A stretch of 64,000 nucleotides of DNA. Source: a virus. The DNA is taken from IMG/VR virus record IMGVR_UViG_3300035138_000032, positions 13,389 through 77,388 of that record. The stretch is one strand, 5' to 3'. This document shows positions 3,749 to 56,262 of the stretch, piece by piece. A program made the translations under genes and the position numbers. Under the pieces are notes generated by a model. The model ran no database searches, was not told the DNA's origin, and saw nothing but the letters and a program-made list of their open reading frames with translations. Position 1 is the first letter of the stretch; each line of letters starts with the position of its first letter.

Positions 3749-4081
3749 ATGAGTAATAAAATTGGATTATTACGAGGCATTATACACGGAATCAAAAATC
3801 TTTTGTTGTGGTTTAAAATCATTTGGGCTGATAGACATTACGATAATTTATTTATATTCAGGATACTTAAGTTTAAATTCATATTAACTGCTGGCTTTTT
3901 TTATAAACATAGTATAAGTATTGATTCAATTAAAATCGCGAAAGACATAGAATTATGTATATTTTTGCTTGACAGAATAATAAAGAATGATTATATTAAA
4001 GATGGTAAAAGGACTAAACACAAAGATATAGAATTACTCTGTGAAATACTGAAAAGGGAATTACCAAATTGGTGGGACTAG
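3749..4081 (+). CDS. hypothetical phage protein
   Basis: GIKNLLLWFKIIWADR...WWD pattern seen in phage proteins. Confidence 0.6.
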   Translation: MSNKIGLLRGIIHGIKNLLLWFKIIWADRHYDNLFIFRILKFKFILTAGFFYKHSISIDSIKIAKDIELCIFLLDRIIKNDYIKDGKRTKHKDIELLCEILKRELPNWWD

Positions 4082-9253: not shown

Positions 9254-9333
9254 TACTATGCAGTCGGTTTTTCTAAAACCTCCTGCAGTGAATTTTTTTT
9301 TAAAACAATAACCTGATTCAGAAAGGTACTTTT

Positions 9334-12309: not shown

Positions 12310-12957
12310 ATGTTTAATAGAGAGACATTTTATACTCATATACGACCTATGTTCGGTGGTAAGCTTAAACAAAAGCAGGTCGATGGTTTTAATGCTATAT
12401 TAGATTATTGGGAAAACGATGTAGAACGGTTGTCGGATTATGAGGACTCCTATGTTGTAGAGTTCCAGTGGTTGGCCTATATCTTAGCCACAGTACATCA
12501 TGAGACGGCTAAAACCATACAACCAATAAAGGAGTATGGTAATAACGATTATTTTCATAGAATGTATGACATAGATGGCGAACGACCTCATGTAGCAACT
12601 AGACTAGGTAATGTAGAGCCTGGTGATGGGGTCAAGTACGCTGGCCGTGGTTTTGTACAACTTACCGGTCGTCGTAATTACGCATTCTGGTCAGATGCCC
12701 TGGGTATTGATTTGATCGGTAATCCTGACATGGCTATGGATTTAGTAGTTGCTAGAGAAATTCTTATTATAGGTATGATAGATGGTACCTTCACTGGTCG
12801 AAAATTATCTACGTATTTTGGTGATGATAAAACTGATTGGCGCAATGCGAGAAAAATAATAAACGGTCTTGATAAAGCAGATCTGATAGCCGGCTATGGT
12901 GAGGGTTATTTTGATGTTTTAGTGCGCGCGGATAACAGGTTTGACTTAATAATATAA
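12310..12957 (+). CDS. endolysin, glycoside hydrolase family 19
   Basis: AYILATVHHET, GDGVKYAGRGFVQLTGRRNY, ARKIING. Confidence 0.9.
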   Translation: MFNRETFYTHIRPMFGGKLKQKQVDGFNAILDYWENDVERLSDYEDSYVVEFQWLAYILATVHHETAKTIQPIKEYGNNDYFHRMYDIDGERPHVATRLGNVEPGDGVKYAGRGFVQLTGRRNYAFWSDALGIDLIGNPDMAMDLVVAREILIIGMIDGTFTGRKLSTYFGDDKTDWRNARKIINGLDKADLIAGYGEGYFDVLVRADNRFDLII

Positions 12958-14552
12958 TGTTTAAAAAGCTAACATATGATTTTGTAAAAAGAAGTTTTGA
13001 GGAAAACGGATATAAATTACTTTCTAAAGAGTATATTAATTCTTCTTCCAAGTTAGAATATGAATGTCCTAATGGACATAGACGTGGCATTACTTGGAAT
13101 AAATGGAACGCCGGTAGACGGTGTCCTTATTGTTCCGAAAACAGTAGAGTATATGGTAGGGATATAGAATATATAAGAAGAGTTTTTGCCAAAGAGGGGT
13201 ACACTCTTTTAAGCACTGAATATATATCTTGCGATACAAAACTTGAATATATTTGTCCTAATGGTCATATATACACAACGTCGTGGGATTCGTGGACTTC
13301 TAAGGGTAATAGGTGCGCTTTGTGCTCTAAAAATATCAAACCAACTATAGAGGAAGTAAAAGAGGCTTTCAAAACTAATGGGTATGTCTTATTAGAGGAT
13401 AGTTATAAAAACGCTAATACAAAGATGAGATATAAGTGTCCTAAAGGACATGAGGGTTATATTACGTGGGGTTATTGGAATAATAACTCTACTGAAAGAT
13501 GCCCTATATGTTCTGGTAAATGTATACATAGTATAGAGTATATAAAGTCAGAGTTTGAGAAAGAGGGTTATAAGCTTTTAATTAAGGAATACAAAAACGG
13601 CAAGCAAAAATTAAAATATATTTGTCCAGATGGTCATAAACATTCAATAACTTGGAATAGGTGGCAGCAAGGCCAGAGGTGCTATAAGTGTTCTTTTAGT
13701 GGTACCTCTAATGGTGAACAAAGTCTATTAAATTATCTGAGAGCTAATTTGGAATACGATATTATTGAAAGGGATAGAACCCTAATTTCTCCACAGGAAT
13801 TAGATATTGTAATCCCGGAAAAAAAATTAGCCATAGAATACTGTGGCCTCTATTGGCACTCCGAACTAGCTGGAAAAGACAAAAATTATCATCTTAATAA
13901 ATTAAAAGCCTGCGAAGAAAAAGGATATAGGTTATTAACTATTTTTGAGGATGAATTTATTAATAAAAAGGATATTGTTAATAGTACTTTAAATAGTATT
14001 ATTGGTTTTGGAGATTGTGAGGTTATTTACGCCCGTGATTGTGAGATAAAGGAAGTTAGCCCGGGTGTAATAAAAGAATTTTGTGAAAAAAATCATTTAC
14101 AAGGTTATGATAATGTATCGTCTGCTAGATTAGGTGCTTTTTATTGCAATAAACTTGTTGGTGTTATGTCTTTTAGTAAATTACCAATGGCTAATGAACA
14201 AGAGAATGTTTGGGAATTACATAGATTTTGTTCAAAATTAAATTATGAAATTATTGGAATTGAGTCTAAGTTATTAAATTACTTTGAAAATAATTGTAGT
14301 TGGAAATCGATTTTTTCATATTCAGATCTCAGGTGGTGTGATGGTGGTTTATACGAGATAATGGGGTTCACTTGTATAGGTAATACCAAACCAGATTATT
14401 GGTATTTTAAGAAGTTAAACAGAAAACATAGGTCTAGTATGGAGAAGTTAAAAAACGAACCGGCCGCTGAGCGGCAAATTCGTAAATCCCAAGGTCGTAA
14501 TATAATTTGGGATTGCGGAAATAAAAAATTTATCAAGGAGAATTGTAAATAG
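12957..14552 (+). CDS. Hef-like endonuclease: Zn-ribbon repeats + PD-(D/E)xK + Mom-like GNAT domain (paralog 1)
   Basis: Four GY.LL..EY...KL.Y.CP.GH...W...RC..C repeats; ELDIVIPEKKLAIEYCGLYWHS; WELHRFCS...SYSDLRW; IWDCG. Confidence 0.75.
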   Translation: MFKKLTYDFVKRSFEENGYKLLSKEYINSSSKLEYECPNGHRRGITWNKWNAGRRCPYCSENSRVYGRDIEYIRRVFAKEGYTLLSTEYISCDTKLEYICPNGHIYTTSWDSWTSKGNRCALCSKNIKPTIEEVKEAFKTNGYVLLEDSYKNANTKMRYKCPKGHEGYITWGYWNNNSTERCPICSGKCIHSIEYIKSEFEKEGYKLLIKEYKNGKQKLKYICPDGHKHSITWNRWQQGQRCYKCSFSGTSNGEQSLLNYLRANLEYDIIERDRTLISPQELDIVIPEKKLAIEYCGLYWHSELAGKDKNYHLNKLKACEEKGYRLLTIFEDEFINKKDIVNSTLNSIIGFGDCEVIYARDCEIKEVSPGVIKEFCEKNHLQGYDNVSSARLGAFYCNKLVGVMSFSKLPMANEQENVWELHRFCSKLNYEIIGIESKLLNYFENNCSWKSIFSYSDLRWCDGGLYEIMGFTCIGNTKPDYWYFKKLNRKHRSSMEKLKNEPAAERQIRKSQGRNIIWDCGNKKFIKENCK

Positions 14553-19081: not shown

Positions 19082-21901
19082 ATGTCCGACATAATCATGG
19101 AGCAGGGTATGGAACTCATAGAATTTTATAGAGAAAATCCATGCATTGCTGCCTATGACCTGTTGCGTGTGGATTTAGCACCTATACAAAGGGCGGTCTT
19201 CGAGGATATGTGGTTTAAGAACTACGTTATAGCTATTTGTGGCCGTGGCGTAGGTAAGACTTTTATGTTAGGAACTTTATCTACTTTGAGTTGTATGCTG
19301 TACCCAGGATATAGAGTAGGGTTAATTGGGCCCGTTTTCCGCCAAAGCAAGATGATCTTCAGTGAAGTTGAGAAACTTTACGCAAAATCCCCACTATTAC
19401 GTGAAGCCTGTGAGAAGAGACCTACCAGGGGCTCTGATACCTGTTATTTAAGATTCAAGTCCGTAGGAGGTTGTAGTCCCTCATTTATCGAAGCGTTACC
19501 TTTGGGCGATGGCTGTATAACTTCTTGTAATTATTTGACATTTAGTGATAGATTTGGAAAAATAGATGACGCTCATGTTGATAATATAGATCACAATCAC
19601 TATTTAGATAGAGAAGATATGGTGTGGTCTAATGGTGCTTTTAAGCTAACTGATAGATCTTTATGTAATGGTATAAAAAATACTATCAAAATTAAGACCA
19701 AAAAAGGTTTTGAAAGCGAAGGTACGCCTAATCATGAGTTTAAAGTAGTCAGAGGCGGTGAGATAGTTTGGTGTAGATTTGATGCTATGGTAGTTGGGGA
19801 TCGTGTATTAATAGATCGAACTAAACGGTGGCATAGTGGACATACTGATGTGACAAAGGAACAGGCTTATTCTTTGGGTTTATTAGTTGCTGGGTGTGAT
19901 TCATCTATAGTTAATTCGTGGTTATGTGATACGTTTGGTTTATCTAAAGTTAAAACTATAGACAAATCCATACCAAAAGTTATATTATGTTCAAGCAGGG
20001 ATGTTATGTCATCTTTTATAAGAGGATTGATGGACGGTGATGGTTCTATTTCGGATAAAGGTGATAGAATTATTTTTACAAATACTTCAAAAGAATTAGT
20101 TGGCCAATTACAATATATCTTACTACATTATGGTATTGTTGCAAAGTTGAGTAAAAAGCCCGAATGTAACTCAAATTGGAATGTGTGTTATACATTAGAT
20201 ATTACTGGTACTAATGTTGATTTATATATGAAAGAAATAGGTTTTGGTTTATCCAGAAAAACCAATAAATACATTCATAGAGATACATATAACCATTATG
20301 ATACTGTACCAATTGACATACATATGGTAATTGATTTTGTTAATGAATATCATTACAAAGGCTTCGATGGTTGTAGAAAATGCCCCGATATAGTCCCCAG
20401 CAAACTGATTAGTAGAAAAGACTTATCTTTTGCATTATGTGATGATTTATTATATAAATATGGACATATTGATGATAGTAGAATAGACATAATACGCAGA
20501 TTAAATAATACTAATATATATTATGATGAAATAATAGAAATTACTGATGGAGAAGCGTGTACATATGATATTCATGTACCAGACGGTAATGAATACTGTG
20601 CAAATGGTTTTTTCAGTCATAATAGTAAGATCCGTGGTTCACGTTTCTATCTTATAGTAGTGGACGAGTTAGCTCAAGTCCCAGACCAAGTATTGGATAT
20701 GGTTGTTAGACCTATGGGCGCCACAACACTCGAACCAATGGAAAATGTTAGGAGATTACAGCGGCAAGAAAAATTGATTAAGTTAGGACTAGCTACAGAG
20801 GATGATTTTGAAGATGGTAAAATTAATAAAATGGTAATGACTTCATCAGGGTTTTATAAGTTCAATCATATGTGGCGTAGAATGAAAGACTATTGGCGGC
20901 AAATGGAGCTTCACGGTGAAGAATCTCAATATAAAGTTTGGCAGGTACCTTATTGGGATTTACCAAATGGATTTCTTGATGAGAATAATATAAAGGAGGC
21001 GGAACGTATAATGTCTTCCGCTGAATTTAGTATGGAATACGAAGCCGCGATGGTATCTGATTCAGAGGGATTTTTCAAAGCTTCCGTGTTGGAGTCTTGT
21101 ACCGGATCTTTTGGTTTGGAGGTCCGTGGTGAGCCAGGAGCCGAATATGTTGTTGGTGTAGACCCAAGTCAGGGAGGTAGTGCGAGTTGCGGTGTAGTAA
21201 TCGTAAGGCTGGGTAATCCAAATGTGCTTGTTAATGTGTTGGAATTGAAGGGTAAGACCACACAGGAATTAACAATGACAGTACAGGCTATCTGTGAGTC
21301 CTATAATGTTGTTAGGATTTTCATGGATAAGGGCGGCGGTGGTAATGCTATAATGGACTTATTAGAAGAAGGCTATAATAGTAAGGAACCGATAATAGAT
21401 CGCTCGGATAAAGATAAGGTAACTTTGAAGGGCCGCCATATACTTGAGATGGTTAATTTTAATCCGACATGGATAACTGATGCTAATTTTACTACTCTAG
21501 CTATGTTGGAAGATAAGAAGTTATTATTTCCAGAGACCCCTGTTGATGGTGTCTCTGTACTTGATAAGATTTACAAAAACATTTTGACTTTAAAGAAGCA
21601 AATGTTGAATATAGTTGTAACACAGACTGGCTCCGGCGCTCTGCATTTTGATACACCTAAGAAGGGGCAGAATAAGGATTTATATTCAGCCATGATTCTA
21701 GCTGCTCATGGTTGTAAGCTCGTGGCCCGTGAATTGGAGGGCGATCCTGAACCACTGTTATACCAGACAGGGGGTTATGTACAAGAGCGTAAACCTAATG
21801 CCCCTTGGCATTTTCTAGGAGCTCATAGTTCACCTGGTACTACAGTGCTTGATGGTTTATTAGGACATGCTATATTAAAAAATAAGCGTATAATTAAATA
21901 A
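19082..21901 (+). CDS. terL: terminase large subunit with intein (mature protein 569 aa)
   Basis: Walker A CGRGVGKT, Walker B LIVVDE, RNase H-like VGVDP...MDKGGGG...KDLYSA. Confidence 0.92.
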   Translation: MSDIIMEQGMELIEFYRENPCIAAYDLLRVDLAPIQRAVFEDMWFKNYVIAICGRGVGKTFMLGTLSTLSCMLYPGYRVGLIGPVFRQSKMIFSEVEKLYAKSPLLREACEKRPTRGSDTCYLRFKSVGGCSPSFIEALPLGDGCITSCNYLTFSDRFGKIDDAHVDNIDHNHYLDREDMVWSNGAFKLTDRSLCNGIKNTIKIKTKKGFESEGTPNHEFKVVRGGEIVWCRFDAMVVGDRVLIDRTKRWHSGHTDVTKEQAYSLGLLVAGCDSSIVNSWLCDTFGLSKVKTIDKSIPKVILCSSRDVMSSFIRGLMDGDGSISDKGDRIIFTNTSKELVGQLQYILLHYGIVAKLSKKPECNSNWNVCYTLDITGTNVDLYMKEIGFGLSRKTNKYIHRDTYNHYDTVPIDIHMVIDFVNEYHYKGFDGCRKCPDIVPSKLISRKDLSFALCDDLLYKYGHIDDSRIDIIRRLNNTNIYYDEIIEITDGEACTYDIHVPDGNEYCANGFFSHNSKIRGSRFYLIVVDELAQVPDQVLDMVVRPMGATTLEPMENVRRLQRQEKLIKLGLATEDDFEDGKINKMVMTSSGFYKFNHMWRRMKDYWRQMELHGEESQYKVWQVPYWDLPNGFLDENNIKEAERIMSSAEFSMEYEAAMVSDSEGFFKASVLESCTGSFGLEVRGEPGAEYVVGVDPSQGGSASCGVVIVRLGNPNVLVNVLELKGKTTQELTMTVQAICESYNVVRIFMDKGGGGNAIMDLLEEGYNSKEPIIDRSDKDKVTLKGRHILEMVNFNPTWITDANFTTLAMLEDKKLLFPETPVDGVSVLDKIYKNILTLKKQMLNIVVTQTGSGALHFDTPKKGQNKDLYSAMILAAHGCKLVARELEGDPEPLLYQTGGYVQERKPNAPWHFLGAHSSPGTTVLDGLLGHAILKNKRIIK
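19514..20623 (+). mobile_element. intein (370 aa) with partly degenerate LAGLIDADG domain
   Basis: PLGDG|CITSC..., GTPNH (block B), FIRGLMDGDG, YDIHV...YCANGFFSHN|SKIRG. Confidence 0.92.
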
Positions 21902-26072: not shown

Positions 26073-26759
26073 ATGAGTGATGAACTGAAAAAAGATGTGG
26101 AGAGGCTTGTTACTGAAATTTTTTCTCAGAAAGAGGAAGAAGCACAGAGAGCTGAAACCGAGAGGGCTCTCAACAAATCCGCTGAAGCTATCTCCCAGTT
26201 AACAGAATCCTTGGAGGCTAAAAATACCGAATTGGAAGAGGTTGCTGGTACCATCGAGAGTTTGAATAGTAAAATTGACGAGTTGACTTCTGAGCTTGAG
26301 GCGGCTAAGAAGGAAACCGAAGAGAAGGCTAATAAACTCACTGAAGCGGAGACTTTAATTGATAATATGAATAAAGACAAAGCTGCTGAGATCAGAATGA
26401 ATGAATTGGTTAGTGTTGGTGTAGCTCTCTCTGATAAGAAGACTCAGTCTGCTAAGGTTAGAGAGATGAGTGATGAGGAATTTGCTTCTTATAAAGAAGA
26501 GTTGACTTCTATAAGGGCAGCGGTTGAGGCCGAATTGGCTAAGAAACCCGTTGACTCTGTGGTTGTCGAACCGACTCCGAATACACCTACAGTGGAAGAC
26601 GCTAATGCAGATGGTGATTCAGATGATTTGGCTCCTGCTAATGTAGACCCAAATCTTACTGCATCAGCAGCTATGAATTTAGAAGTGAAAACTGATGACA
26701 GCTTCCTGTCAAAGTACGCTGAATTAGGCAAGGCTATGGCAGCGAAGATGAAAAATTAG
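26073..26759 (+). CDS. capsid scaffolding protein
   Basis: Acidic coiled-coil between protease and capsid genes. Confidence 0.7.
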   Translation: MSDELKKDVERLVTEIFSQKEEEAQRAETERALNKSAEAISQLTESLEAKNTELEEVAGTIESLNSKIDELTSELEAAKKETEEKANKLTEAETLIDNMNKDKAAEIRMNELVSVGVALSDKKTQSAKVREMSDEEFASYKEELTSIRAAVEAELAKKPVDSVVVEPTPNTPTVEDANADGDSDDLAPANVDPNLTASAAMNLEVKTDDSFLSKYAELGKAMAAKMKN

Positions 26760-26780
26760 AAATAAGGAGGAACTGGGGGT

Positions 26781-27428
26781 ATGTTTAGTCCAAGACATCC
26801 TGTTGTTTTAAATCAATTTTGTAGTTACGGGGCACAGACAGCCACATCTACTGGCGGCGTTGGCGCTGTAGTAGCTTATGCTGGTTCCGTTGTTTATCTT
26901 GATTCTTCAGCTGCAAATCAGGACGCTATCGTCTATAAAATGGCGCATGGTGTTACTGCCACGCCATTTGGGATCGCTATGCAGAAGGTCAAGACTGGGT
27001 ATCACCAAGTACATCCTACTGGTTTTATGATGCCCGGTGATTTGGGGTCTAGTGATGTGCTTGCCCAGCCGGATTACGATAGTAATGGTGATATCCAGGG
27101 TACCAAAGAGGCACCTTTGGGTGTCGCTCATCTTGGTATTTGGGATACCGTGCATTATACTTGTGACATGACAGCGAGTGTTATTCAAACTGGCGATAAT
27201 ATGAAACCAGGTGACGCGTTGTATGTTGCGGCCGATGAGGCTAAGCTGACTAATAATAGTACTGATGTTTCCGTAGGTACAGCTTCCACAGATAAGGCTA
27301 ATGGGTCTTATATCGATGGTCAGACTACAGCTGTGGGTATATGTATGAAGGGAGCCAGTTTGGCTAAGTGTCAGGCTAATTTTAACAACACAACTCTATA
27401 TCCGATAAGGGTAAAGCTGTTGGTGTAA
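26781..27428 (+). CDS. capsid decoration/cement protein
   Basis: Directly upstream of MCP; PGDALYV...KLT and GICMK pattern. Confidence 0.65.
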   Translation: MFSPRHPVVLNQFCSYGAQTATSTGGVGAVVAYAGSVVYLDSSAANQDAIVYKMAHGVTATPFGIAMQKVKTGYHQVHPTGFMMPGDLGSSDVLAQPDYDSNGDIQGTKEAPLGVAHLGIWDTVHYTCDMTASVIQTGDNMKPGDALYVAADEAKLTNNSTDVSVGTASTDKANGSYIDGQTTAVGICMKGASLAKCQANFNNTTLYPIRVKLLV

Positions 27429-27492
27429 GTTTTAATGGGATTAAAGCACTCTATAGTGCTTCCTAAACTAATTAAATTTGGAGGAGTTGAAT

Positions 27493-30400
27493 ATGGAACT
27501 CAAAGAAATGCAGGAATTATTTAAAGCCACTGCTGAGATTGGCCCCGCTGGTGAGGCCGCTTTTAAGGCATTTGCTGCTGCTATCACAACTCCTATCCTT
27601 CAGAAATTAGAGCTGGATTCGATTATGCGAGGAATGTTTGCTACTGAACGGTTGGCACCGGGTAAATTTTTGTGCCCCGCGTAGTTGGGAGACTACGTAG
27701 TAAACCTAACTATATGCTGGAAACTCCTAAAGCTGTTCTTTACTGATAACGTAATAAAAAGGAAGATAAAATGGATAATCATGCAGATAACTTTATTATT
27801 AGTACTAATTATATAGCTGGTTTAGTGGATAGTGATTTTGGTGTTTATATAAGTAGATTTTATCCTAGAGGTAAATTACGATTAAGTCCGTGTATACAAT
27901 TCGTTAATACTAATTTTGGTTTGATTGAGTTGTGTCACAAATACTTAGATGATAATGATATAAACCATCATATAAGATTCAGGAAGGCTACAGTAGGTAA
28001 GGATAAAAAAGAGCTCACTATAAATAGACTTATTAAATGTATAGAGTTCGCGGACTTGGTGGTAGGTTGTAGTGTTGTTAGAAAACCTCAATTAGAAATA
28101 ATTAGGGAATTCTGTGTTGACAGACTACATTATGTTTATGAATGTGGCTGGAAACAAAATAATACACCTTACACTGATTACCAGAAGAAATTATATGATG
28201 AGTTGTTAAATTTGAATCTTAACTATAATTATGATAATGGTAATAGAAATTACACTGCCTCTTGGTTGGCCGGTATGATAGACGGTGATGGTTCGGTATG
28301 TTTTGTTGTTACTGAAAACAAAAAAAGTGAGTATGAATTAGTCAATGGGGATATTAGAGAATATTATCATACGCGTGTTATACCAACTATAGATATAACT
28401 ACTGGATCTGATACTAATCGGAATAACATAATCACTATTTTTGATAATTTGGATATTAAGTATTCTATTAGAACTACTAAGTCTAAGGCCAAGAAAAGAT
28501 TAGGTAAAAATAAAAAGAAATACTATTACAATCTATACATTAGGTCTTATGATGATATAGAAAAGTTCTTGTTGTATGTTAAGGATAAATTATATGCCAA
28601 ACGTAGACAAGCTATACTGATGTTAGAGTACTTAGAATTAAAAAAGAATAACAAATTCAATACTGACGAAGTTTTCGATATAGTAAATAAAGTAAAGTTT
28701 TTAAACAATAATCCTAATAATAAAGACATCTCAGAGACTACACGTTAGGTACCTTTATAGGTAATAATATAGTCCGAACTGTATGGAGACATACAGAGGT
28801 TATCTCGCGATAGCCCGCCTGAAATAAAAAAAATTCCAGGTCAAAAAGTAACAGAATGGCTCAAGCCGTTTATCCCGTAAATTGTTGCGTTTCGTAATAG
28901 TAATATTACGTCAAAATCCCCTTAATTGCTGGAAAGCCCTAAAGCTTTTTATACTGATATAGTAATAATTAAAAAGATATATGGGTAATCAGCAGCGTGT
29001 AAAAAGCGTTCAACGACCAGGCTTTTATAGCCGTAGGCTTCAAGTGAAGCCGAAATTGGGGAAACCCTTAGAAGGGTTTTGATATGGTCTCATCTTTATG
29101 GAAACATAAAGCAGTTTCTTTGTGAAACGACATGTATTTAACGAATACATGTGAAGATATTGAGCAGAAGACTTCGAGATTCCCGTGTGGGTGTTACCGG
29201 GACTCGGTTATATGGCTCAGAATTTCATTGAAGGTATAGGTGAAGAGGTTTACGTGCCTACGTTTAATATTAACGCGTCGGCACAGTGGAAGATTACTTA
29301 TGCTCGTGATTCTCGTATTGATATTGCACAGCGTTCGGCCGCTAAGGTGGCCAAGGAATTGGCAGATTATGAGGAAGAGTAAACACACATGCTCCTTTAT
29401 ATAGTGATATATAAAGCAAACTATGAATATGCTGGAAACTCTCGTTAGGTCATAGGTACTAGTCAATGTACAGTAAAAACCCTATGAATAGAGACAATCA
29501 GCAGAAATGGAGAACTTATGATTATAGAAAGAGATATCTTAAAAAATACATTTAAAGGGAATATATTTGAAACAGCTGTAGAGTTGAGAGTATCTATACA
29601 AACTGTTATGGCATCGCTTAAAAAACACGATATGACATTTATTAAACCAAAACATATATATGGAGAATTAAAAAGAACTGATTTTTCTGATTTTCAAAAA
29701 AGTCTTTTGATAGGTAGTGTATTAGGCGATGGTCATATAGAGAAAAGATCACATTTAAAAAATGCATTATTTAGAGAAGAGCACTCCACGGATCAAGTTG
29801 AATGGTTAAAATGGAAATATAATAATTTAAAGCCGTTTACCACTTCAAATATGTGGAATAGAGATAGAGGAAAAAAGATGTGGATGCCTGATGGTAGGAG
29901 TAATAAAAAATTATATAATATTCAGAAAGTGTATTCTATGTCTACCGGTGTTCATCCTTATTTAACTGAATTACACAAACTTTTTTACAAAAATAAAACC
30001 AAAATTCTGCCTAAAGAGTTTTTAATAAGTAATTTTAATATGGTTTCGTTAGCGGTCTTGATAGGTGATGACGGTAATTTTTGTGAAAATAGTCTTCGTT
30101 TTTGTACTGATAATTTTAGTAAGGAAGAGGTATATTTTTTAGCAGATCTTTTTTCTAATTTTTATAACAGTAGAATTACTGTAAGACAGCAAGACAATAA
30201 ATATAGGATAGTTTTTACTTATATTAAGCAGGATTTAAAGTTTTTTGATGGTATTAAGAATATATTACCTAAATGTATGCATCATAAAGTAACTCCAGTT
30301 CTCAACGAACACCAAGTAGCTACTCATTGAGTAGAAGGTATGTTCTGAACTCCATGGAGACATGGAGAGGTTAAAAGAAATTTTAGCCCGCCTGAAAATA

Positions 30401-31090
30401 AATAATTTCAGGTCATAAAAGTAACAGAGTGGTGGTTGGAGAGTTATTATGCCAGCTTGTACATCGTCTTTTTCTGGTAAAGGTCTGTTAGGGTCCAGGC
30501 CTGCTCCGATTTATGAAATCAACCCAGCTTCTACAGGAGCTGGATACCTTTCTAAGGAACTCATCAATAAAATGATGGTTGGTTTCAAGAGAGTAGGACG
30601 CCAGTTGACTGATTTGTATATATCTCCTGAAGATGCGGCTGACATTCGTGAATGGACGGATACGGATATTGACCCCATTACACGGCGAGAAGTTTTCCAG
30701 GCGGCCGGAATGGGAGTTATTTGGAATGTGACAATGCATGAAGTTCAGCATCTTGGCGCCACTGGTCTTTATAACATAAATGGTTACGGATCTGAGTATG
30801 GTAAGTTTATTGCTGCTAGTGGAAATACTTACAATCAGTATACTCTTGATAATCCTAATTTGACCAATGCTGATGGTACCATTAATACGCTGGGCGAGAC
30901 CCAGATTATAGGTTTTGACTCTACTGTCAATGATTCTCTTGTTATGCCTATTCGAAAGGAATATGAAGCATACGATGATCCTACTCTGCTTCGTTCTCAA
31001 CAGCAAGGGTTTTTTGGATGGGCAGAGCTTGGATTCGCCTGTCTTGATCCGAGAATGCTAGGTATTGGAGTTATTGATAGAAGTCTGTAA
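27493..31090 (+). CDS. major capsid protein, join(27493..27663,28859..28878,29163..29380,30432..31090), 355 aa
   Basis: Exons splice in frame (171+20+218+659=1068 nt): ...RLAPG|AQAVYPV|AEDFEIPVW...ADYEEE|CGWRVIMPA...; every exon before an intron ends in U and every intron ends in G. Confidence 0.88.
27664..28858 (+). mobile_element. group I intron 1 of MCP (1195 nt, carries HEG)
   Basis: P1 GGGU/GCCC; P element AUGCUGGAAAC; P7 GAGACUA/UAGUCC; terminal G. Confidence 0.88.
27771..28748 (+). CDS. intron-encoded LAGLIDADG homing endonuclease (two motifs)
   Basis: YIAGLVDSD and WLAGMIDGDG; ends SETTR, overlapping P7. Confidence 0.9.
   Translation: MDNHADNFIISTNYIAGLVDSDFGVYISRFYPRGKLRLSPCIQFVNTNFGLIELCHKYLDDNDINHHIRFRKATVGKDKKELTINRLIKCIEFADLVVGCSVVRKPQLEIIREFCVDRLHYVYECGWKQNNTPYTDYQKKLYDELLNLNLNYNYDNGNRNYTASWLAGMIDGDGSVCFVVTENKKSEYELVNGDIREYYHTRVIPTIDITTGSDTNRNNIITIFDNLDIKYSIRTTKSKAKKRLGKNKKKYYYNLYIRSYDDIEKFLLYVKDKLYAKRRQAILMLEYLELKKNNKFNTDEVFDIVNKVKFLNNNPNNKDISETTR
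28879..29162 (+). ncRNA. group I intron 2 of MCP (284 nt, no ORF)
   Basis: P1 CGU|AA..UUGCG; UUGCUGGAAA, AAUCAGCAG; P7 ACGACCA/UGGUCU; terminal G at 29162. Confidence 0.88.
29381..30431 (+). mobile_element. group I intron 3 of MCP (1051 nt, carries HEG)
   Basis: P1 GAGU/GCUC; AUGCUGGAAAC, AAUCAGCAG; P7 ACGAACA/UGUUCU; 3' domain similar to intron 1. Confidence 0.88.
29518..30330 (+). CDS. intron-encoded LAGLIDADG homing endonuclease (I-SceI-like, LAGLIDADG_2 type)
   Basis: LIGSVLGDGHI, LAVLIGDDGN, TDNFSKEEV. Confidence 0.88.
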   Translation: MIIERDILKNTFKGNIFETAVELRVSIQTVMASLKKHDMTFIKPKHIYGELKRTDFSDFQKSLLIGSVLGDGHIEKRSHLKNALFREEHSTDQVEWLKWKYNNLKPFTTSNMWNRDRGKKMWMPDGRSNKKLYNIQKVYSMSTGVHPYLTELHKLFYKNKTKILPKEFLISNFNMVSLAVLIGDDGNFCENSLRFCTDNFSKEEVYFLADLFSNFYNSRITVRQQDNKYRIVFTYIKQDLKFFDGIKNILPKCMHHKVTPVLNEHQVATH

Positions 31091-31101
31091 TTTTTGCTAT
31101 A

Positions 31102-31151
31102 AAACAATACTTTATATACCCTCTAAACTTATGGTGTATAAAGTATTGTTT
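31102..31151 (+). terminator. 19-bp stem hairpin after MCP (terminator or processing site)
   Basis: AAACAATACTTTATATACC / GGTGTATAAAGTATTGTTT. Confidence 0.6.
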
Positions 31152-31164
31152 AACTATTCTATTT

Positions 31165-32670
31165 ATGTACAAAGATAAGAAATGTCAATATAAACAGTGT
31201 GATAATATTTTTACTCCTACTACAGGGAGTCAAAAGTATTGTTCATCCTGTGCTATTAAATCTAAACAGGAAAAGGACAGGCTAAGGTGGCGAGATCGTA
31301 ACAGAGAGCTTAATTGTTATAAAGAATATACAAGGTTATGTAAAATATGCGGTAAAGAGTTTAAAACATTTTATAAAAAGAAAATTTATTGTGGCTCAGA
31401 GAAGTGTGAAGCAGAACGTATTAGATTGAAAAATAAAAATTATCATGAAAAAAGAGATCATGATTATATGATAGGGAAAGGTAGAAGTTATTATAGAAAA
31501 AATAAAGCTTCTATTTTATTAAAGAAAGCCGCAGTATATAGAAAAAATAATAAAAATGTAAAGAGATATAAAAATAAAATACACATTCATAATATTGATT
31601 ATATACGAAACTATGTTGAAGAGCGCGGTTACCAATTACTTTCAAAAGAATATTTAAATAGTAAAAGTAAAATTAAATTAAAGTGTCCTAATGGGCATAC
31701 TTGGAAAACAACTTTTCATAATTTTAGAGATGCTAATAGCAGGGGAGAGATCATTACTGGGGCTAGATGTATTACATGTTATTTGAACAATAATTATACG
31801 TCCAAACCTGAACAGAAAATTCGTGATTTTTTTAAGGAACATCACCCCAATATAAAATGTCTATATAATGATAGAACTGTAATAGGACCAAAAGAATTAG
31901 ATTTGTATTTTCCTTCTAATAAAGTTGCTGTTGAGGTTTGCGGTTTATACTGGCATTCCGAAAATCTTGGTAATACTGATAGAAATTATCATTATGAAAA
32001 GATGGTAGCTTGTTTTAATAATGGAGTGAGACTAATAACGGTTTTTGAAGACGAGATCTATAATAAGTTTGATATTGTAATTTCTAGGATCTGCCAGGCA
32101 TTGGGAATTATTAAACATAAGGTCTTTGCAAGAAATTGCGACGTTAGAGAGATTTCTGCTAATGAAGCTAATGGGTTTTTTGAAAAGAATCATTTACAAG
32201 GAAAGTCAAATAGTGTAAAGGCTTGGGGACTGTTTAATAATAACAAGTTAATTGCAGCATGTGGTGTAGGTAATTTATTAAGAAAACGTATATCAAATAA
32301 AAATGTATTAGAGTTGAAAAGATTCTGTTCTTTGATAAATTATACTGTTGTAGGTGGAGCAAACAAACTATTTAAGCACGTAGTTATGTATGCAAAGAAA
32401 TTAGGATATGATGAGATAAGGTCCTACTGTGATATGAGGTATGCTAATATTTTTAATGTGGTATATGATATATTAGGTTTTAAATTACTGACTTTAACTA
32501 AATATACACCACATCATTTTAAATCCGGTATAAGATATAGGAATTTCTCTTTGAGAAAGATTGCTGTAGAACGTGAGTCAGGTAAAACTGAATTTGAATT
32601 GAGAAAAGCTCAAGGTTATGATAGGATTTGGGATTGCGGCCACAGAACTTATGTTTATAGAATTATCTAA
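31165..32670 (+). CDS. Hef-like endonuclease + Mom-like GNAT domain (paralog 2)
   Basis: Cys-rich N-terminus, CPNGH repeat, ELDLYFPSNKVAVEVCGLYWHS, ELKRFCS, IWDCG. Confidence 0.75.
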   Translation: MYKDKKCQYKQCDNIFTPTTGSQKYCSSCAIKSKQEKDRLRWRDRNRELNCYKEYTRLCKICGKEFKTFYKKKIYCGSEKCEAERIRLKNKNYHEKRDHDYMIGKGRSYYRKNKASILLKKAAVYRKNNKNVKRYKNKIHIHNIDYIRNYVEERGYQLLSKEYLNSKSKIKLKCPNGHTWKTTFHNFRDANSRGEIITGARCITCYLNNNYTSKPEQKIRDFFKEHHPNIKCLYNDRTVIGPKELDLYFPSNKVAVEVCGLYWHSENLGNTDRNYHYEKMVACFNNGVRLITVFEDEIYNKFDIVISRICQALGIIKHKVFARNCDVREISANEANGFFEKNHLQGKSNSVKAWGLFNNNKLIAACGVGNLLRKRISNKNVLELKRFCSLINYTVVGGANKLFKHVVMYAKKLGYDEIRSYCDMRYANIFNVVYDILGFKLLTLTKYTPHHFKSGIRYRNFSLRKIAVERESGKTEFELRKAQGYDRIWDCGHRTYVYRII

Positions 32671-55327: not shown

Positions 55328-56262
55328 TGAAAAGTTTACGTAAAGAGGATTTAAGTCTTTACTACTATATTAAACATGTGGCCTTATTTGAATTTATGGA
55401 GTTAGAGGAGTTTGCTCCTTTACAAGAACTAGCTATAGAAGAATTCTGTAGTACTGAATTCAAGGTTTATGAGGCTCTTACCGCTTGGTGCGAATTTCCT
55501 GATGGATTTACGCCCAGTCCTACAGCACGTGGTAGGGGTTGGGTGTATCTTGATGATAGTACTATTTCAGGTACTGACCAATGTAATCCTTATGTTTTGG
55601 TGTCCGGTACTGATGTTAAAGGTACTAGCATAATTGGTATTCCTGAACAGTATAATAGGATAAACGTTTACGATGCTGATGGTGTGTTGATATCGGAACA
55701 GTACTATATGGTAGATTATATAGATGGTAGAATCATAACTGATGGTTCTGTTATTCCGGCATATATAGATTATTACTGGTATTACATTAGTTTGGTGGAC
55801 GAATGGGCAGCAGTGGAGGCGGCCGATCCTCCGGTTGTAGTTATTGATATGCATGGCACTGACCCATCTGGTTATCAGCTTGGCGCTGGTAAGAAAAAAG
55901 TTAGAAAAGTAGATTTACATATATTTGCAACGAATCCAGCTGAGAGAAATGATATAGTCGATGAGTTAGTAGATGCTCTATACAATAAAACTGCCCCGTT
56001 ATATAATTTTTCGTTTGGGACTATGTTGGAATATGATGGCACATGGTACGGTCGTAAATCTACAATGAATAAATTAACTACTTTGTTTAATACGCAACGA
56101 GCAGAGCATGTAATAGGTAATATGGAGTTCGAAAATGTTGTTGCCAGGCATGTTAATTTACCATTAGTTATGTCGAGGGATAGAAATGAGGTTATGTTAA
56201 GTGATCTAAACGCTTATCGATCGAAAGTAAGTTTTGATCTGGTTACTTATACCTATGTCTAA
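55324..56262 (+). CDS. putative tail completion/terminator protein
   Basis: PPVVVID...YQLG...VDLHIFA....ERNDI; upstream of the tail tube gene. Confidence 0.6.
   Translation: MMKSLRKEDLSLYYYIKHVALFEFMELEEFAPLQELAIEEFCSTEFKVYEALTAWCEFPDGFTPSPTARGRGWVYLDDSTISGTDQCNPYVLVSGTDVKGTSIIGIPEQYNRINVYDADGVLISEQYYMVDYIDGRIITDGSVIPAYIDYYWYYISLVDEWAAVEAADPPVVVIDMHGTDPSGYQLGAGKKKVRKVDLHIFATNPAERNDIVDELVDALYNKTAPLYNFSFGTMLEYDGTWYGRKSTMNKLTTLFNTQRAEHVIGNMEFENVVARHVNLPLVMSRDRNEVMLSDLNAYRSKVSFDLVTYTYV

What the first reader, a model, noticed from the sequence alone, without database searches (positions are those of the whole stretch)
27493..31090. Major capsid gene split by three group I introns, including a 20-nt micro-exon
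The three ORF-track fragments (27478, 29185, 30449) plus an unannotated 20-nt exon (28859-28878, AQAVYPV) join in frame into a 355-aa capsid protein. Each 5' splice site is a U able to form the P1 U-G pair, and each intron ends in G. The three P7 helices differ but stay paired (GACUA/UAGUC, GACCA/UGGUC, GAACA/UGUUC). The most abundant virion protein therefore needs three splicing events. Skipping the micro-exon would frameshift it, so splicing could act as a timing or regulatory gate.
Basis: partly seen in the sequence, partly recalled or inferred. Interest (0 to 1): 0.75.

Follow-up and report, generated by a model that had tools for sequence, protein, structure and literature searches.

The report
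Capsid gene split by three introns
The major capsid gene of an uncultured wetland jumbo-phage fragment really is cut into four pieces, one only 20 bases long, by three self-splicing group I introns. This is a clean example of a known phenomenon, and the same gene turns out to be an intron hotspot across related phages.

Summary
Four exons (27493-27663, 28859-28878, 29163-29380, 30432-31090) join into a 355-aa protein. It is collinear, without gaps, with hundreds of uninterrupted 355-356-aa homologues (82-94% identical), including across the 20-nt micro-exon. The protein family matches the phage G major capsid protein (PDB 6wkk, E 1.9e-16).

All three insertions are group I introns:
- **I2** (284 nt, no ORF) scores 67.8 bits on Rfam RF00028.
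- **I1 and I3** belong to a second family with LAGLIDADG genes in the P6 loop. An ORF-less relative scores 85.7 bits. A model built only from relatives finds exactly these two 3' domains (93 and 123 bits), each ending at the predicted splice site.
- P1, P3, P7, P8 and P9 covary, and each guide sequence matches its own exon.

Splicing itself is not shown, because no RNA data were available. The "regulatory gate" idea is untested and less likely than plain selfish mobility.

Context lowers the novelty. Capsid-gene introns and three-intron phage genes are already known. New here:
- About 24% of 80 related loci carry introns in this gene.
- These introns occupy about 12 sites.
- Mini-exons of 20-40 nt recur.
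- ORF-less introns occur only next to endonuclease-carrying ones.

The parts
27480..27485 (+). Shine-Dalgarno GGAGGA, 7 nt upstream of the capsid start codon
   Evidence: Read directly from the sequence. The N-terminus MELKEMQELF matches that of the homologues.
27493..27663 (+). Exon 1 (171 nt, residues 1-57, ends ...CCG GGU)
   Evidence: Aligns to residues 1-57 of the uninterrupted homologues. Boundary fixed.
27664..28858 (+). Intron 1 (1195 nt), group I, 'family A'. Helices: IGS 27673-27677, P2 27680-27697, P3 27705-27710/28744-28749, P4 27715-27720/27780-27786, P6 27791-27802/28714-28725, P7 28736-28740/28770-28774, P9 28779-28796, terminal G 28858
   Evidence: Helix table. Model R1, built without any window sequence, hits 28730-28858 at 93.4 bits, E 1.4e-22. 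RF00028 gives 40.9 bits, E 1.5e-10, on 28614-28796. The core is 62.5% identical to the ORF-less relative L091:2349-2616, which scores 85.7 bits on RF00028.
27771..28748 (+). Intron-1 ORF, 325 aa, double-motif LAGLIDADG homing endonuclease in the P6 loop. Its start codon lies in the P5 3' strand and its stop codon in the P3 3' strand.
   Evidence: PDB I-CreI/I-DmoI matches, E 2.6e-6. Pfam Hom_end 20.8 bits, just under the 21.1 cut-off. phrog_5046, E 9.6e-9. Two LAGLIDADG-like motifs are visible in the translation.
28859..28878 (+). Exon 2, the 20-nt micro-exon (AQAVYP plus the first two bases of V64)
   Evidence: Aligns to invariant residues A58-P63 of the homologues. The same micro-exon region is found between two introns in L091.
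28879..29162 (+). Intron 2 (284 nt, no ORF), group I, 'family B', with P7.1/P7.2-type hairpins. Helices: IGS 28885-28889, P2 28893-28910, P3 28917-28921/29058-29062, P7 29015-29019/29085-29089, P7.1 29020-29032, P7.2 29036-29051, P8 29064-29077, P9 29094-29111
   Evidence: RF00028 67.8 bits, E 2.6e-17, full-length model; 68.7 bits. The MFE fold reproduces the helices with z = -5.8. The 3' part matches introns of Staphylococcus phages PT1-1 and PT94 over 43 nt at 93-97%.
29163..29380 (+). Exon 3 (218 nt, third base of V64 to first base of C137)
29381..30431 (+). Intron 3 (1051 nt), group I, 'family A'. Helices: IGS 29390-29394, P2 29395-29416, P3 29421-29424/30316-30319, P4 29430-29435/29499-29504, P6 29509-29515/30298-30303, P7 30307-30311/30341-30345, P8 30320-30334, P9 30350-30367, terminal G 30431
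   Evidence: Model R1 hits 30301-30431 at 123.3 bits, E 2.2e-30. Ten relatives carry a homologous intron at the same site, with compensatory changes in P2, P3 and P9.
29518..30330 (+). Intron-3 ORF, 270 aa, LAGLIDADG_2 homing endonuclease in the P6 loop. Its GGAG ribosome-binding site lies in the P6 5' strand and its stop codon in the P8 loop.
   Evidence: Pfam PF03161, E 8.2e-32. phrog_11023.
30432..31090 (+). Exon 4 (659 nt including the stop; residues C137 (last two bases) to L355)
   Evidence: 599 homologues, of which the 120 listed are 82-94% identical. Alignment.
31102..31151 (+). 19-bp hairpin 12 nt after the capsid stop codon (a candidate terminator or mRNA-stabilising stem, with no U-tract)
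   Evidence: MFE -21.7 kcal/mol, z = -7.2. The spurious miRNA-family hits come from this hairpin.

Best explanation
This is the major capsid protein gene (phage G gp27-like family) of an uncultured jumbo phage from a wetland. The record is 77 kb and estimated 28% complete. Three mobile group I introns interrupt the gene.

I1 and I3 belong to one intron family. Each carries a double-motif LAGLIDADG homing endonuclease gene in the P6 loop. I2 is an ORF-less intron of a different lineage, with P7.1/P7.2-type hairpins, related to introns of Staphylococcus phages.

Inferred mechanism: after transcription each intron folds and pairs its guide sequence with the last 3-4 exon bases, with a U.G wobble at the cleavage site. 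It then excises itself by the two guanosine-initiated transesterifications. I1 and I2 share the 20-nt exon. I2 uses the exon's 3' end for its P1 helix, and I1 ligates onto its 5' end. Three correct splices give a 355-aa capsid mRNA.

The introns are best read as selfish elements kept in invariant stretches of an essential gene by endonuclease-driven homing. The ORF-less I2 probably travels with I1 by co-conversion.

Shown: the exon map, intron family membership, the structure and its covariation. Inferred: splicing in vivo, endonuclease activity and homing.
For: - Exon collinearity with uninterrupted homologues at protein and DNA level.
- Capsid identity: a profile of the homologues hits PDB 6wkk, the phage G capsid protein, at E 1.9e-16. 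phrog_2522 'major head protein' hits at E 6e-10 to 2e-12. The gene order is terminase, portal-like, coiled-coil scaffold-like, decoration-like, then this gene.
- I2: RF00028 at 67.8 and 68.7 bits.
- Family A: the ORF-less relative scores 85.7 bits. Model R1, built only from relatives, finds exactly two hits in 64 kb, each ending at a predicted 3' splice site.
- Covariation: P7, P8 and P9 are 89.7% paired, 11 of 18 pairs show double changes, and 0 of 500 shuffles reach the observed values.
- P1, P2, P3, P6, P9.1 and P9.2 differ in sequence yet stay paired in 15 introns. The guide sequence is complementary to seven different 5' exons.
- Endonucleases: PF03161 at 8e-32 and I-CreI-type matches.
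- The source-run contig spans the whole stretch, and a 151-nt record from another study spans the exon 3/intron 3 junction without a difference.
Against: - No RNA evidence for splicing, and no in vitro test.
- I1 reaches only 40.9 bits on RF00028, below the 50-bit cut-off. I3 has no direct RF00028 hit. Their assignment rests on homology to an ORF-less relative and on covariation.
- The P1 helices are short, with 3-4 exon base pairs.
- No convincing P10 pairing was found.
- The capsid fold could not be confirmed by structure prediction.
Confidence: 0.88

Rival explanations
1. The introns have been co-opted as a gate. Capsid protein output would be timed or limited by the efficiency or order of the three splicing events, and skipping of the 20-nt exon would serve as an off-switch.
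For: Any exon skipping gives a stop at codons 76-79. The endonuclease ORFs overlap core helices: the start or ribosome-binding site lies in P5/P6 and the stop codon in P3'/P8. Translation and folding must therefore compete. From my own knowledge, splicing of the phage T4 introns depends on translation, and exon skipping was reported for the three-intron gene of phage Twort (title cited).
Against: 58 of 80 related loci have the gene uninterrupted, and intron content varies from 0 to 3 at about 12 sites. This is the pattern of mobile selfish elements, not of a conserved regulatory device. No conserved alternative-splice signal was found.
Confidence: 0.07
2. The gene is dead. The insertions no longer splice, the intron cores are decaying, and the contig comes from a defective phage or relies on another capsid gene.
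For: Splicing is not demonstrated. Among relatives, one intron ends in A instead of G (L234, site 238) and one insertion lacks a U...G solution (L256, site 627). Decay therefore does occur in this family.
Against: The exons carry no frameshift or stop, and exon 4 is 94% identical to the closest intact homologue. All core helices, the U.G pairs and the terminal G residues are intact. Both endonuclease ORFs are full length. No second capsid gene was seen in the 77-kb record.
Confidence: 0.04
3. The three-intron arrangement is an assembly chimera that joins reads from different phage variants.
For: The source is a metagenome, and related variants with and without I3 co-occur in wetland runs.
Against: An independently built contig (22.3 kb) of the source run covers 27400-31200 with no difference. 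Short records from two other studies match parts of it exactly, including the exon 3/intron 3 junction. L091 shows the same layout of intron, micro-exon, intron, exon, intron.
Confidence: 0.01

Closest known systems
Staphylococcus phage Twort orf142: a single gene with three self-splicing group I introns and exon skipping (Landthaler & Shub 1999, PNAS 96:7005; I saw only the title, as cited in PMC6669764; the paper is not held)
   Same: Three group I introns in one phage gene, close together. Mis-pairing of splice sites could skip an exon.
   Different: Here the gene is the major capsid gene of an uncultured jumbo phage. Two unrelated intron lineages are mixed, two of the introns carry LAGLIDADG genes, and the middle exon is only 20 nt. 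Splicing is not demonstrated here.
Capsid-gene introns of mycobacteriophage LittleE (Cluster J) and lactococcal phage Tuc2009 (PMC3706429)
   Same: A group I-type intron with a LAGLIDADG-like ORF in a major capsid gene. The exon ends in U and the intron ends in G. The LittleE intron is spliced efficiently late in infection (RT-PCR and N-terminal sequencing).
   Different: Those genes have one intron each. Here there are three, with a micro-exon. The capsid family and the intron sequences are unrelated.
Group I introns of metagenomic jumbo 'Jug' phages and crAss-like phages (PMC12880540)
   Same: Uncultured large phages whose essential genes (terL, nrdD, polymerase) are split into two or three pieces by group I introns and endonuclease genes. 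[quoted passage not shown]
   Different: That work concerns gut phages of Bacteroides and does not report capsid-gene introns or micro-exons in the passages I read. This is a wetland phage with a phage G-like capsid protein.
Tandem group I introns in the major tail protein gene of Staphylococcus phage PT1-1
   Same: Two full RF00028 matches (88.5 and 59.5 bits) lie about 59 nt apart in a virion structural gene. The first shares a 43-nt P7'-P9 stretch, 93% identical, with I2.
   Different: Different host gene and phage. The exon between the introns is about three times longer.
Micro-exons between introns in organelle genes (placozoan and fungal mitochondrial cox1; PMC5436844, PMC12308204)
   Same: Very short exons left between adjacent self-splicing introns in an essential, highly conserved gene.
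   Different: These are eukaryotic organelles, not a phage. I read only titles and abstracts.

Membership tests
Group I intron (Rfam RF00028) | Match to the family covariance model above the gathering score (50 bits) | tested here: met
   This verdict applies to I2: 67.8 bits, E 2.6e-17, model positions 1-253; 68.7 bits. I1 reaches 40.9 bits, E 1.5e-10, below the cut-off. I3 has no direct hit on its 3' half. Both have ORFs of 0.8-1 kb in P6 that the model cannot span. Their ORF-less relative L091:2349-2616 scores 85.7 bits.
Group I intron (Rfam RF00028) | The 5' exon ends in U, which forms a U.G wobble in P1 with an internal guide sequence | tested here: met
   The pairings are GGGU|A with UGCCC (I1), CGU|AA with UUGCG (I2) and GAGU|A with UGCUC (I3). 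In 15 family-A introns the guide sequence changes to match seven different exon contexts, for example u-A versus c-G between L088 and L089.
Group I intron (Rfam RF00028) | The intron ends in G (omega-G) | tested here: met
   G at 28858, 29162 and 30431. 33 of 35 mapped intron junctions in relatives allow a U...G solution.
Group I intron (Rfam RF00028) | Conserved core (P3-P8 with P7, J6/7 and J8/7) maintained by compensatory changes | tested here: met
   P7 is 98.5% paired, with 3 of 5 pairs covarying. P9 is 100% paired, with 5 of 7 covarying. 0 of 500 shuffles reach the observed score. P3 pairs vary as CCUAAC/GUUAGG, CUAU/GUAG, CCAC/GUGG, CCGU/ACGG and others. J8/7 reads GAUAUAGUC-like and J6/7 reads CAACGA-like, as in the Rfam consensus.
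Group I intron (Rfam RF00028) | Guanosine-dependent self-splicing that joins the exons | not testable with these tools
   No RNA run holds the locus. Only the in-silico joining is shown.
Subgroup IA (IA2-like), considered for I2 only | Extra hairpins P7.1 and P7.2 between the P7 5' strand and the P3 3' strand | tested here: inconclusive
   Two hairpins at 29020-29032 and 29036-29051 occupy that position. No subgroup-specific models were available, so no subgroup is assigned. Family A (I1, I3) has only 3 nt there and is not IA1/IA2-like.
LAGLIDADG homing endonuclease | Sequence match to the family and two LAGLIDADG motifs | tested here: met
   I3 ORF: PF03161 at 110.9 bits, E 8.2e-32. I1 ORF: I-CreI/I-DmoI chains at E 2.6e-6, PF05204 at 20.8 bits against a 21.1 cut-off, and two motifs in the translation.
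LAGLIDADG homing endonuclease | Cleaves the intron-less allele at or near the insertion site | not testable with these tools
   Intron-less alleles exist in the same habitats. Cleavage itself is untested.
HK97-fold major capsid protein (phage G gp27-like) | Homology to an experimentally solved capsid protein | tested here: met
   A profile of 27 uninterrupted homologues hits 6wkk_A 'Gp27 major capsid protein' at E 1.9e-16, covering residues 16-241. phrog_2522 also matches.
HK97-fold major capsid protein (phage G gp27-like) | HK97 fold | tested here: inconclusive
   The AlphaFold2 model had mean pLDDT 35 because the alignment was too shallow, so no fold search was run.

The most novel reading that the evidence does not exclude
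The capsid gene of this jumbo-phage clade is a group I intron hotspot with about 12 insertion sites in 1068 nt. Adjacent introns behave as one homing unit. ORF-less mini-introns persist only within 20-29 nt of an endonuclease-carrying intron. From there they are dragged along by co-conversion, and they may shield the neighbour's target site. This leaves recurrent 20-40-nt mini-exons whose size is set by the minimum needed for P1 of one intron and exon ligation of the other.
Probability: 0.35. Interest if true: 0.55.

Novelty: new member of a known kind. Interest (0 to 1): 0.42.

Why it matters
**For annotation.** Gene callers and a whole-window Rfam scan both missed this gene. Naive annotation leaves three "hypothetical" fragments and no capsid gene. 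About a quarter of related metagenomic phages have the same problem.

**For intron biology.** The locus and its relatives form a natural series. One intron family has been retargeted to many sites in a single essential gene through guide-sequence changes. The series includes forms with and without an ORF, and tandem pairs separated by 20-40 nt. It could be used to study three things:
- how group I introns colonise new sites;
- how small an exon two ribozymes can share;
- whether ORF-less introns hitch-hike on a neighbour's endonuclease.

It does not change the known picture of phage introns.

Tried and rejected
- **Rfam scans.** Scans of the whole window with gathering thresholds, and of a 4-kb slice at E<=10, found no group I intron. 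This was a filter artefact: a 361-nt slice gave 67.8 bits. A slice with only the 3' half of I3 gave no RF00028 hit.
- **Known phages.** tblastn of exon 4 against 50,697 phage records found no match, so no cultured close relative is known.
- **Contig look-ups.** The truncated homologues of 213, 275 and 291 aa could not be traced to their contigs.
- **DNA patterns.** Two over-specific intron patterns found nothing in IMG/VR. The I1 endonuclease found no relatives there by peptide patterns.
- **RNA evidence.** No RNA holder is listed for this stretch, so splicing could not be checked with reads. The runs that were laid are DNA contigs only.
- **Structure prediction.** The capsid homologue model had mean pLDDT 35 and was unusable. 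No fold search was run.
- **Promoter and terminator scan.** The consensus scan of 26700-31300 found nothing above the shuffled background.
- **P10 pairing.** I looked for pairing between the 3' exons and the P1 loops by eye and found nothing convincing or conserved.
- **Inteins.** Rejected because every insertion has in-frame stops within a few codons.
- **Group II introns.** Rejected on size, the absence of a reverse transcriptase, and the group I core.
- **Upstream arm of the genome.** A weak R1 hit at L279:9255-9300 was not confirmed by Rfam.
- **Rejected script.** It was rerun without the peptide.
Full report
**What is there**

ORF listing shows three capsid-like fragments separated by AT-rich stretches. 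Two of these stretches hold long ORFs. Exon 4 alone finds 599 homologues. Most are 355-356 aa long, and the 120 listed are 82-94% identical. Aligned with eight of them, the four window pieces abut without gap or overlap: RLAPG | AQAVYP(V) | AEDF... and ...YEEE (C) GWRVI.

The exons are 27493-27663, 28859-28878, 29163-29380 and 30432-31090. Together they make 1068 nt, that is 355 codons and a stop. Codon-by-codon comparison with five uninterrupted genes fixes the boundaries. I1 and I3 cannot slide. I2 can slide by one base without changing the product, and the U/G rule selects 28878|28879. Exons are 43-55% G+C and introns 30-35%.

**Is it the capsid gene?**

The window fragments alone give only a weak phrog_2522 hit. 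The uninterrupted homologues hit phrog_2522 'major head protein' at E 6e-10 to 2e-12. A profile of 27 of them hits the solved phage G capsid protein gp27 (6wkk) at E 1.9e-16.

The upstream gene order fits a head module. It runs large terminase (19082-21901), a portal-like gene, a coiled-coil scaffold-like gene, a decoration-like gene, then this gene. An AlphaFold2 model was unusable, so the fold is inferred from sequence homology.

The record is an IMG/VR virus contig of 77,388 nt, estimated 28% complete, from a wetland metagenome. Homologues sit on contigs of up to 334 kb. This points to a jumbo phage.

**Are the insertions group I introns?**

*Intron 2.* I2 (284 nt, no ORF) matches RF00028 over the full model at 67.8 bits, E 2.6e-17, once searched in a short slice. 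It scores 68.7 bits through the genome search. The earlier whole-window and 4-kb scans missed it because of speed filters. Its minimum-energy fold reproduces P3, P4-P6, two hairpins in the P7.1/P7.2 position, P8, P9, P9.1 and P9.2, with z = -5.8. Its P7'-P9 segment is 93-97% identical over 43 nt to introns in Staphylococcus phages PT1-1 and PT94. In PT1-1 two full RF00028 matches lie in tandem in the major tail protein gene.

*Introns 1 and 3.* I1 and I3 belong to another lineage, called family A here. Searching IMG/VR with the I3 endonuclease gave ten loci whose capsid genes are also interrupted. Two of their introns are ORF-less family-A members: L091:2349-2616 and L090:1351-1659. The first scores 85.7 bits on RF00028, E 9.5e-23.

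After cutting out the P6 loop, the cores of I1 and I3 align over their whole length with these relatives, at 59-63% identity. RNAalifold recovers P1, P2, P4, P5, P6, P7, P8, P9 and P9.1. A per-intron helix table shows every helix maintained with different sequences:
- P3 appears as CCUAAC/GUUAGG, UCUAGC/GCUAGA, UUUCGC/GCGAAA, CCAC/GUGG, CCGU/ACGG and CUAU/GUAG.
- P7 appears as GACUA/UAGUC, GAACA/UGUUC and GACUG/CAGUC.
- The guide sequence in each intron is complementary to its own 5' exon, at seven different sites.

On a tool-made alignment of 13 3' domains, P7, P8 and P9 are 89.7% paired. Eleven of 18 pairs show changes on both sides. None of 500 shuffles and no slid register come near these values.

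A covariance model was built from 14 relatives with no window sequence in it. It finds exactly two significant hits in the 64-kb window: 30301-30431 (123.3 bits) and 28730-28858 (93.4 bits). Each ends on the predicted 3' splice site. RF00028 itself gives 40.9 bits, E 1.5e-10, on the 3' part of I1.

**The endonucleases**

The I3 ORF (270 aa) is a LAGLIDADG_2 protein, E 8e-32. The I1 ORF (325 aa) matches I-CreI and I-DmoI, E 2.6e-6. Both ORFs sit in the P6 loop and run into the ribozyme core:
- The I1 start codon lies in the P5 3' strand and its stop codon in the P3 3' strand.
- The I3 GGAG ribosome-binding site lies in the P6 5' strand and its stop codon in the P8 loop.

Endonuclease translation and ribozyme folding should therefore compete on any one transcript. 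This is an inference.

**The micro-exon**

The 20 nt encode A58-P63 plus two bases of V64, all invariant or nearly invariant in the family. I2 uses the exon's last three bases in P1. I1 needs only to ligate onto its first base. Nothing in the structure conflicts. Skipping exon 2, exon 3 or both gives a stop at codons 76-79.

**Wider pattern**

I drew a less biased sample of 80 IMG/VR loci, anchored on the intron-free C-terminal 139 aa. Of these, 58 are uninterrupted, 3 are cut by contig ends and 19 (24%) are interrupted.

Mapping the junctions gives about 12 insertion sites, in CDS nucleotides: 171, 180, 191, 195, 209, 238, 265, 278, 409, 612, about 627, and 639. Loci carry one to three introns each. 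A U...G solution exists at 33 of 35 junctions.

Mini-exons recur:
- 20 nt in the window;
- 24 nt in L091;
- 26 nt in L088;
- 27 nt in L090;
- 29 nt in L270, and twice in L234;
- 40 nt in L246.

All five ORF-less introns seen lie 20-29 nt from an ORF-carrying intron. ORF-carrying versions of sites 195 and 612 stand alone. This suggests hitch-hiking by co-conversion, but the sample is small and the idea is not tested. One locus (L225) was not fully resolved.

The family-A 3' terminal motif occurs in at least 120 IMG/VR stretches, and only one of the 80 fetched lies in this capsid gene. Core segments of both families match known phage introns, including those of Lactobacillus phage JCL1032, Clostridium perfringens phages, Bacillus SPO1-like polymerase genes and Staphylococcus myoviruses. 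The introns themselves are therefore ordinary phage group I introns.

**Physical reality of the arrangement**

A 22.3-kb contig of the likely source run covers 27400-31200 without a difference. A 151-nt record from another study spans the exon 3/intron 3 junction exactly. A 253-nt contig from a third run is a relative that lacks I3.

**What is not shown**

There is no RNA evidence, because no RNA holder is listed. Splicing, endonuclease activity and homing are all inferred.

The regulatory-gate idea has no support. Variable presence across close relatives argues for selfish mobility.

**Comparison with what is known**

Capsid-gene introns are documented in LittleE, where splicing was shown, and in Tuc2009 (PMC3706429). 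A three-intron phage gene with exon skipping is documented in Twort (title cited in PMC6669764). Intron-riddled metagenomic jumbo phages are also described (PMC12880540).

This locus is a new and unusually dense member of that kind. Its specific points of interest are the 20-nt shared exon and the hotspot pattern.

Noticed in passing
window 12957-14552, 31165-32670, 56234-57790: Three free-standing paralogous HNH/homing endonuclease genes (phrog_559, E 1e-118, 3e-70 and 4e-106). One starts 75 nt after the capsid stop codon. The genome is heavily loaded with mobile nucleases.
   Followed up: partly
window 31102-31151: A perfect 19-bp hairpin lies directly after the capsid gene (-21.7 kcal/mol, z = -7.2) with no U-tract. 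It caused spurious miRNA-family hits in Rfam.
   Followed up: partly
L001 (Staphylococcus phage PT1-1, PP212900.1) 2274-2538, 2598-2867, perhaps 3911-3992: Unannotated tandem group I introns (RF00028 at 88.5 and 59.5 bits) split what looks like the major tail protein gene (phrog_88), followed by an HNH endonuclease gene. The record annotates only 'hypothetical proteins', some on the wrong strand.
   Followed up: partly
window 1-64000: Method note: the default Rfam scan of the whole window, and even a 4-kb scan at E<=10, reported no group I intron. Yet I2 scores 68 bits in a short slice. Negative Rfam scans of long AT-rich phage sequence should not be trusted for this family.
   Followed up: yes
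L234:4864-5590 and L256:4948-5900: In relatives, one family-A intron at site 238 ends in A instead of G, and the insertion at site about 627 has no U...G solution. These may be decaying or non-canonical elements.
   Followed up: no
L095-L174 (IMG/VR): The 17-nt 3' terminal motif GGTCATAAAAGTAACAG (the end of P9.2 plus the intron tail) is shared by at least 120 viral contig stretches whose intron cores differ widely. It looks like a conserved 3' module of a very large environmental group I intron clade.
   Followed up: partly
window 19082-21901: The large terminase ORF is 939 aa. The terminase profile covers only residues 509-882, and other PHROG families of unknown function match the N-terminal half. 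It may be a fusion or carry an inserted domain.
   Followed up: no
L279 (G000:C1) 9255-9300, upstream of the window: A partial match (17.8 bits) to the family-A terminal module, with no RF00028 hit nearby. Possibly an intron remnant.
   Followed up: partly
L090:1687-2666: The intron at site 639 belongs to a third lineage. Its 5' and 3' ends differ from families A and B, and it has a 258-aa ORF that appears to be placed after P7 rather than in P6. At least three intron lineages have therefore invaded this capsid gene.
   Followed up: no
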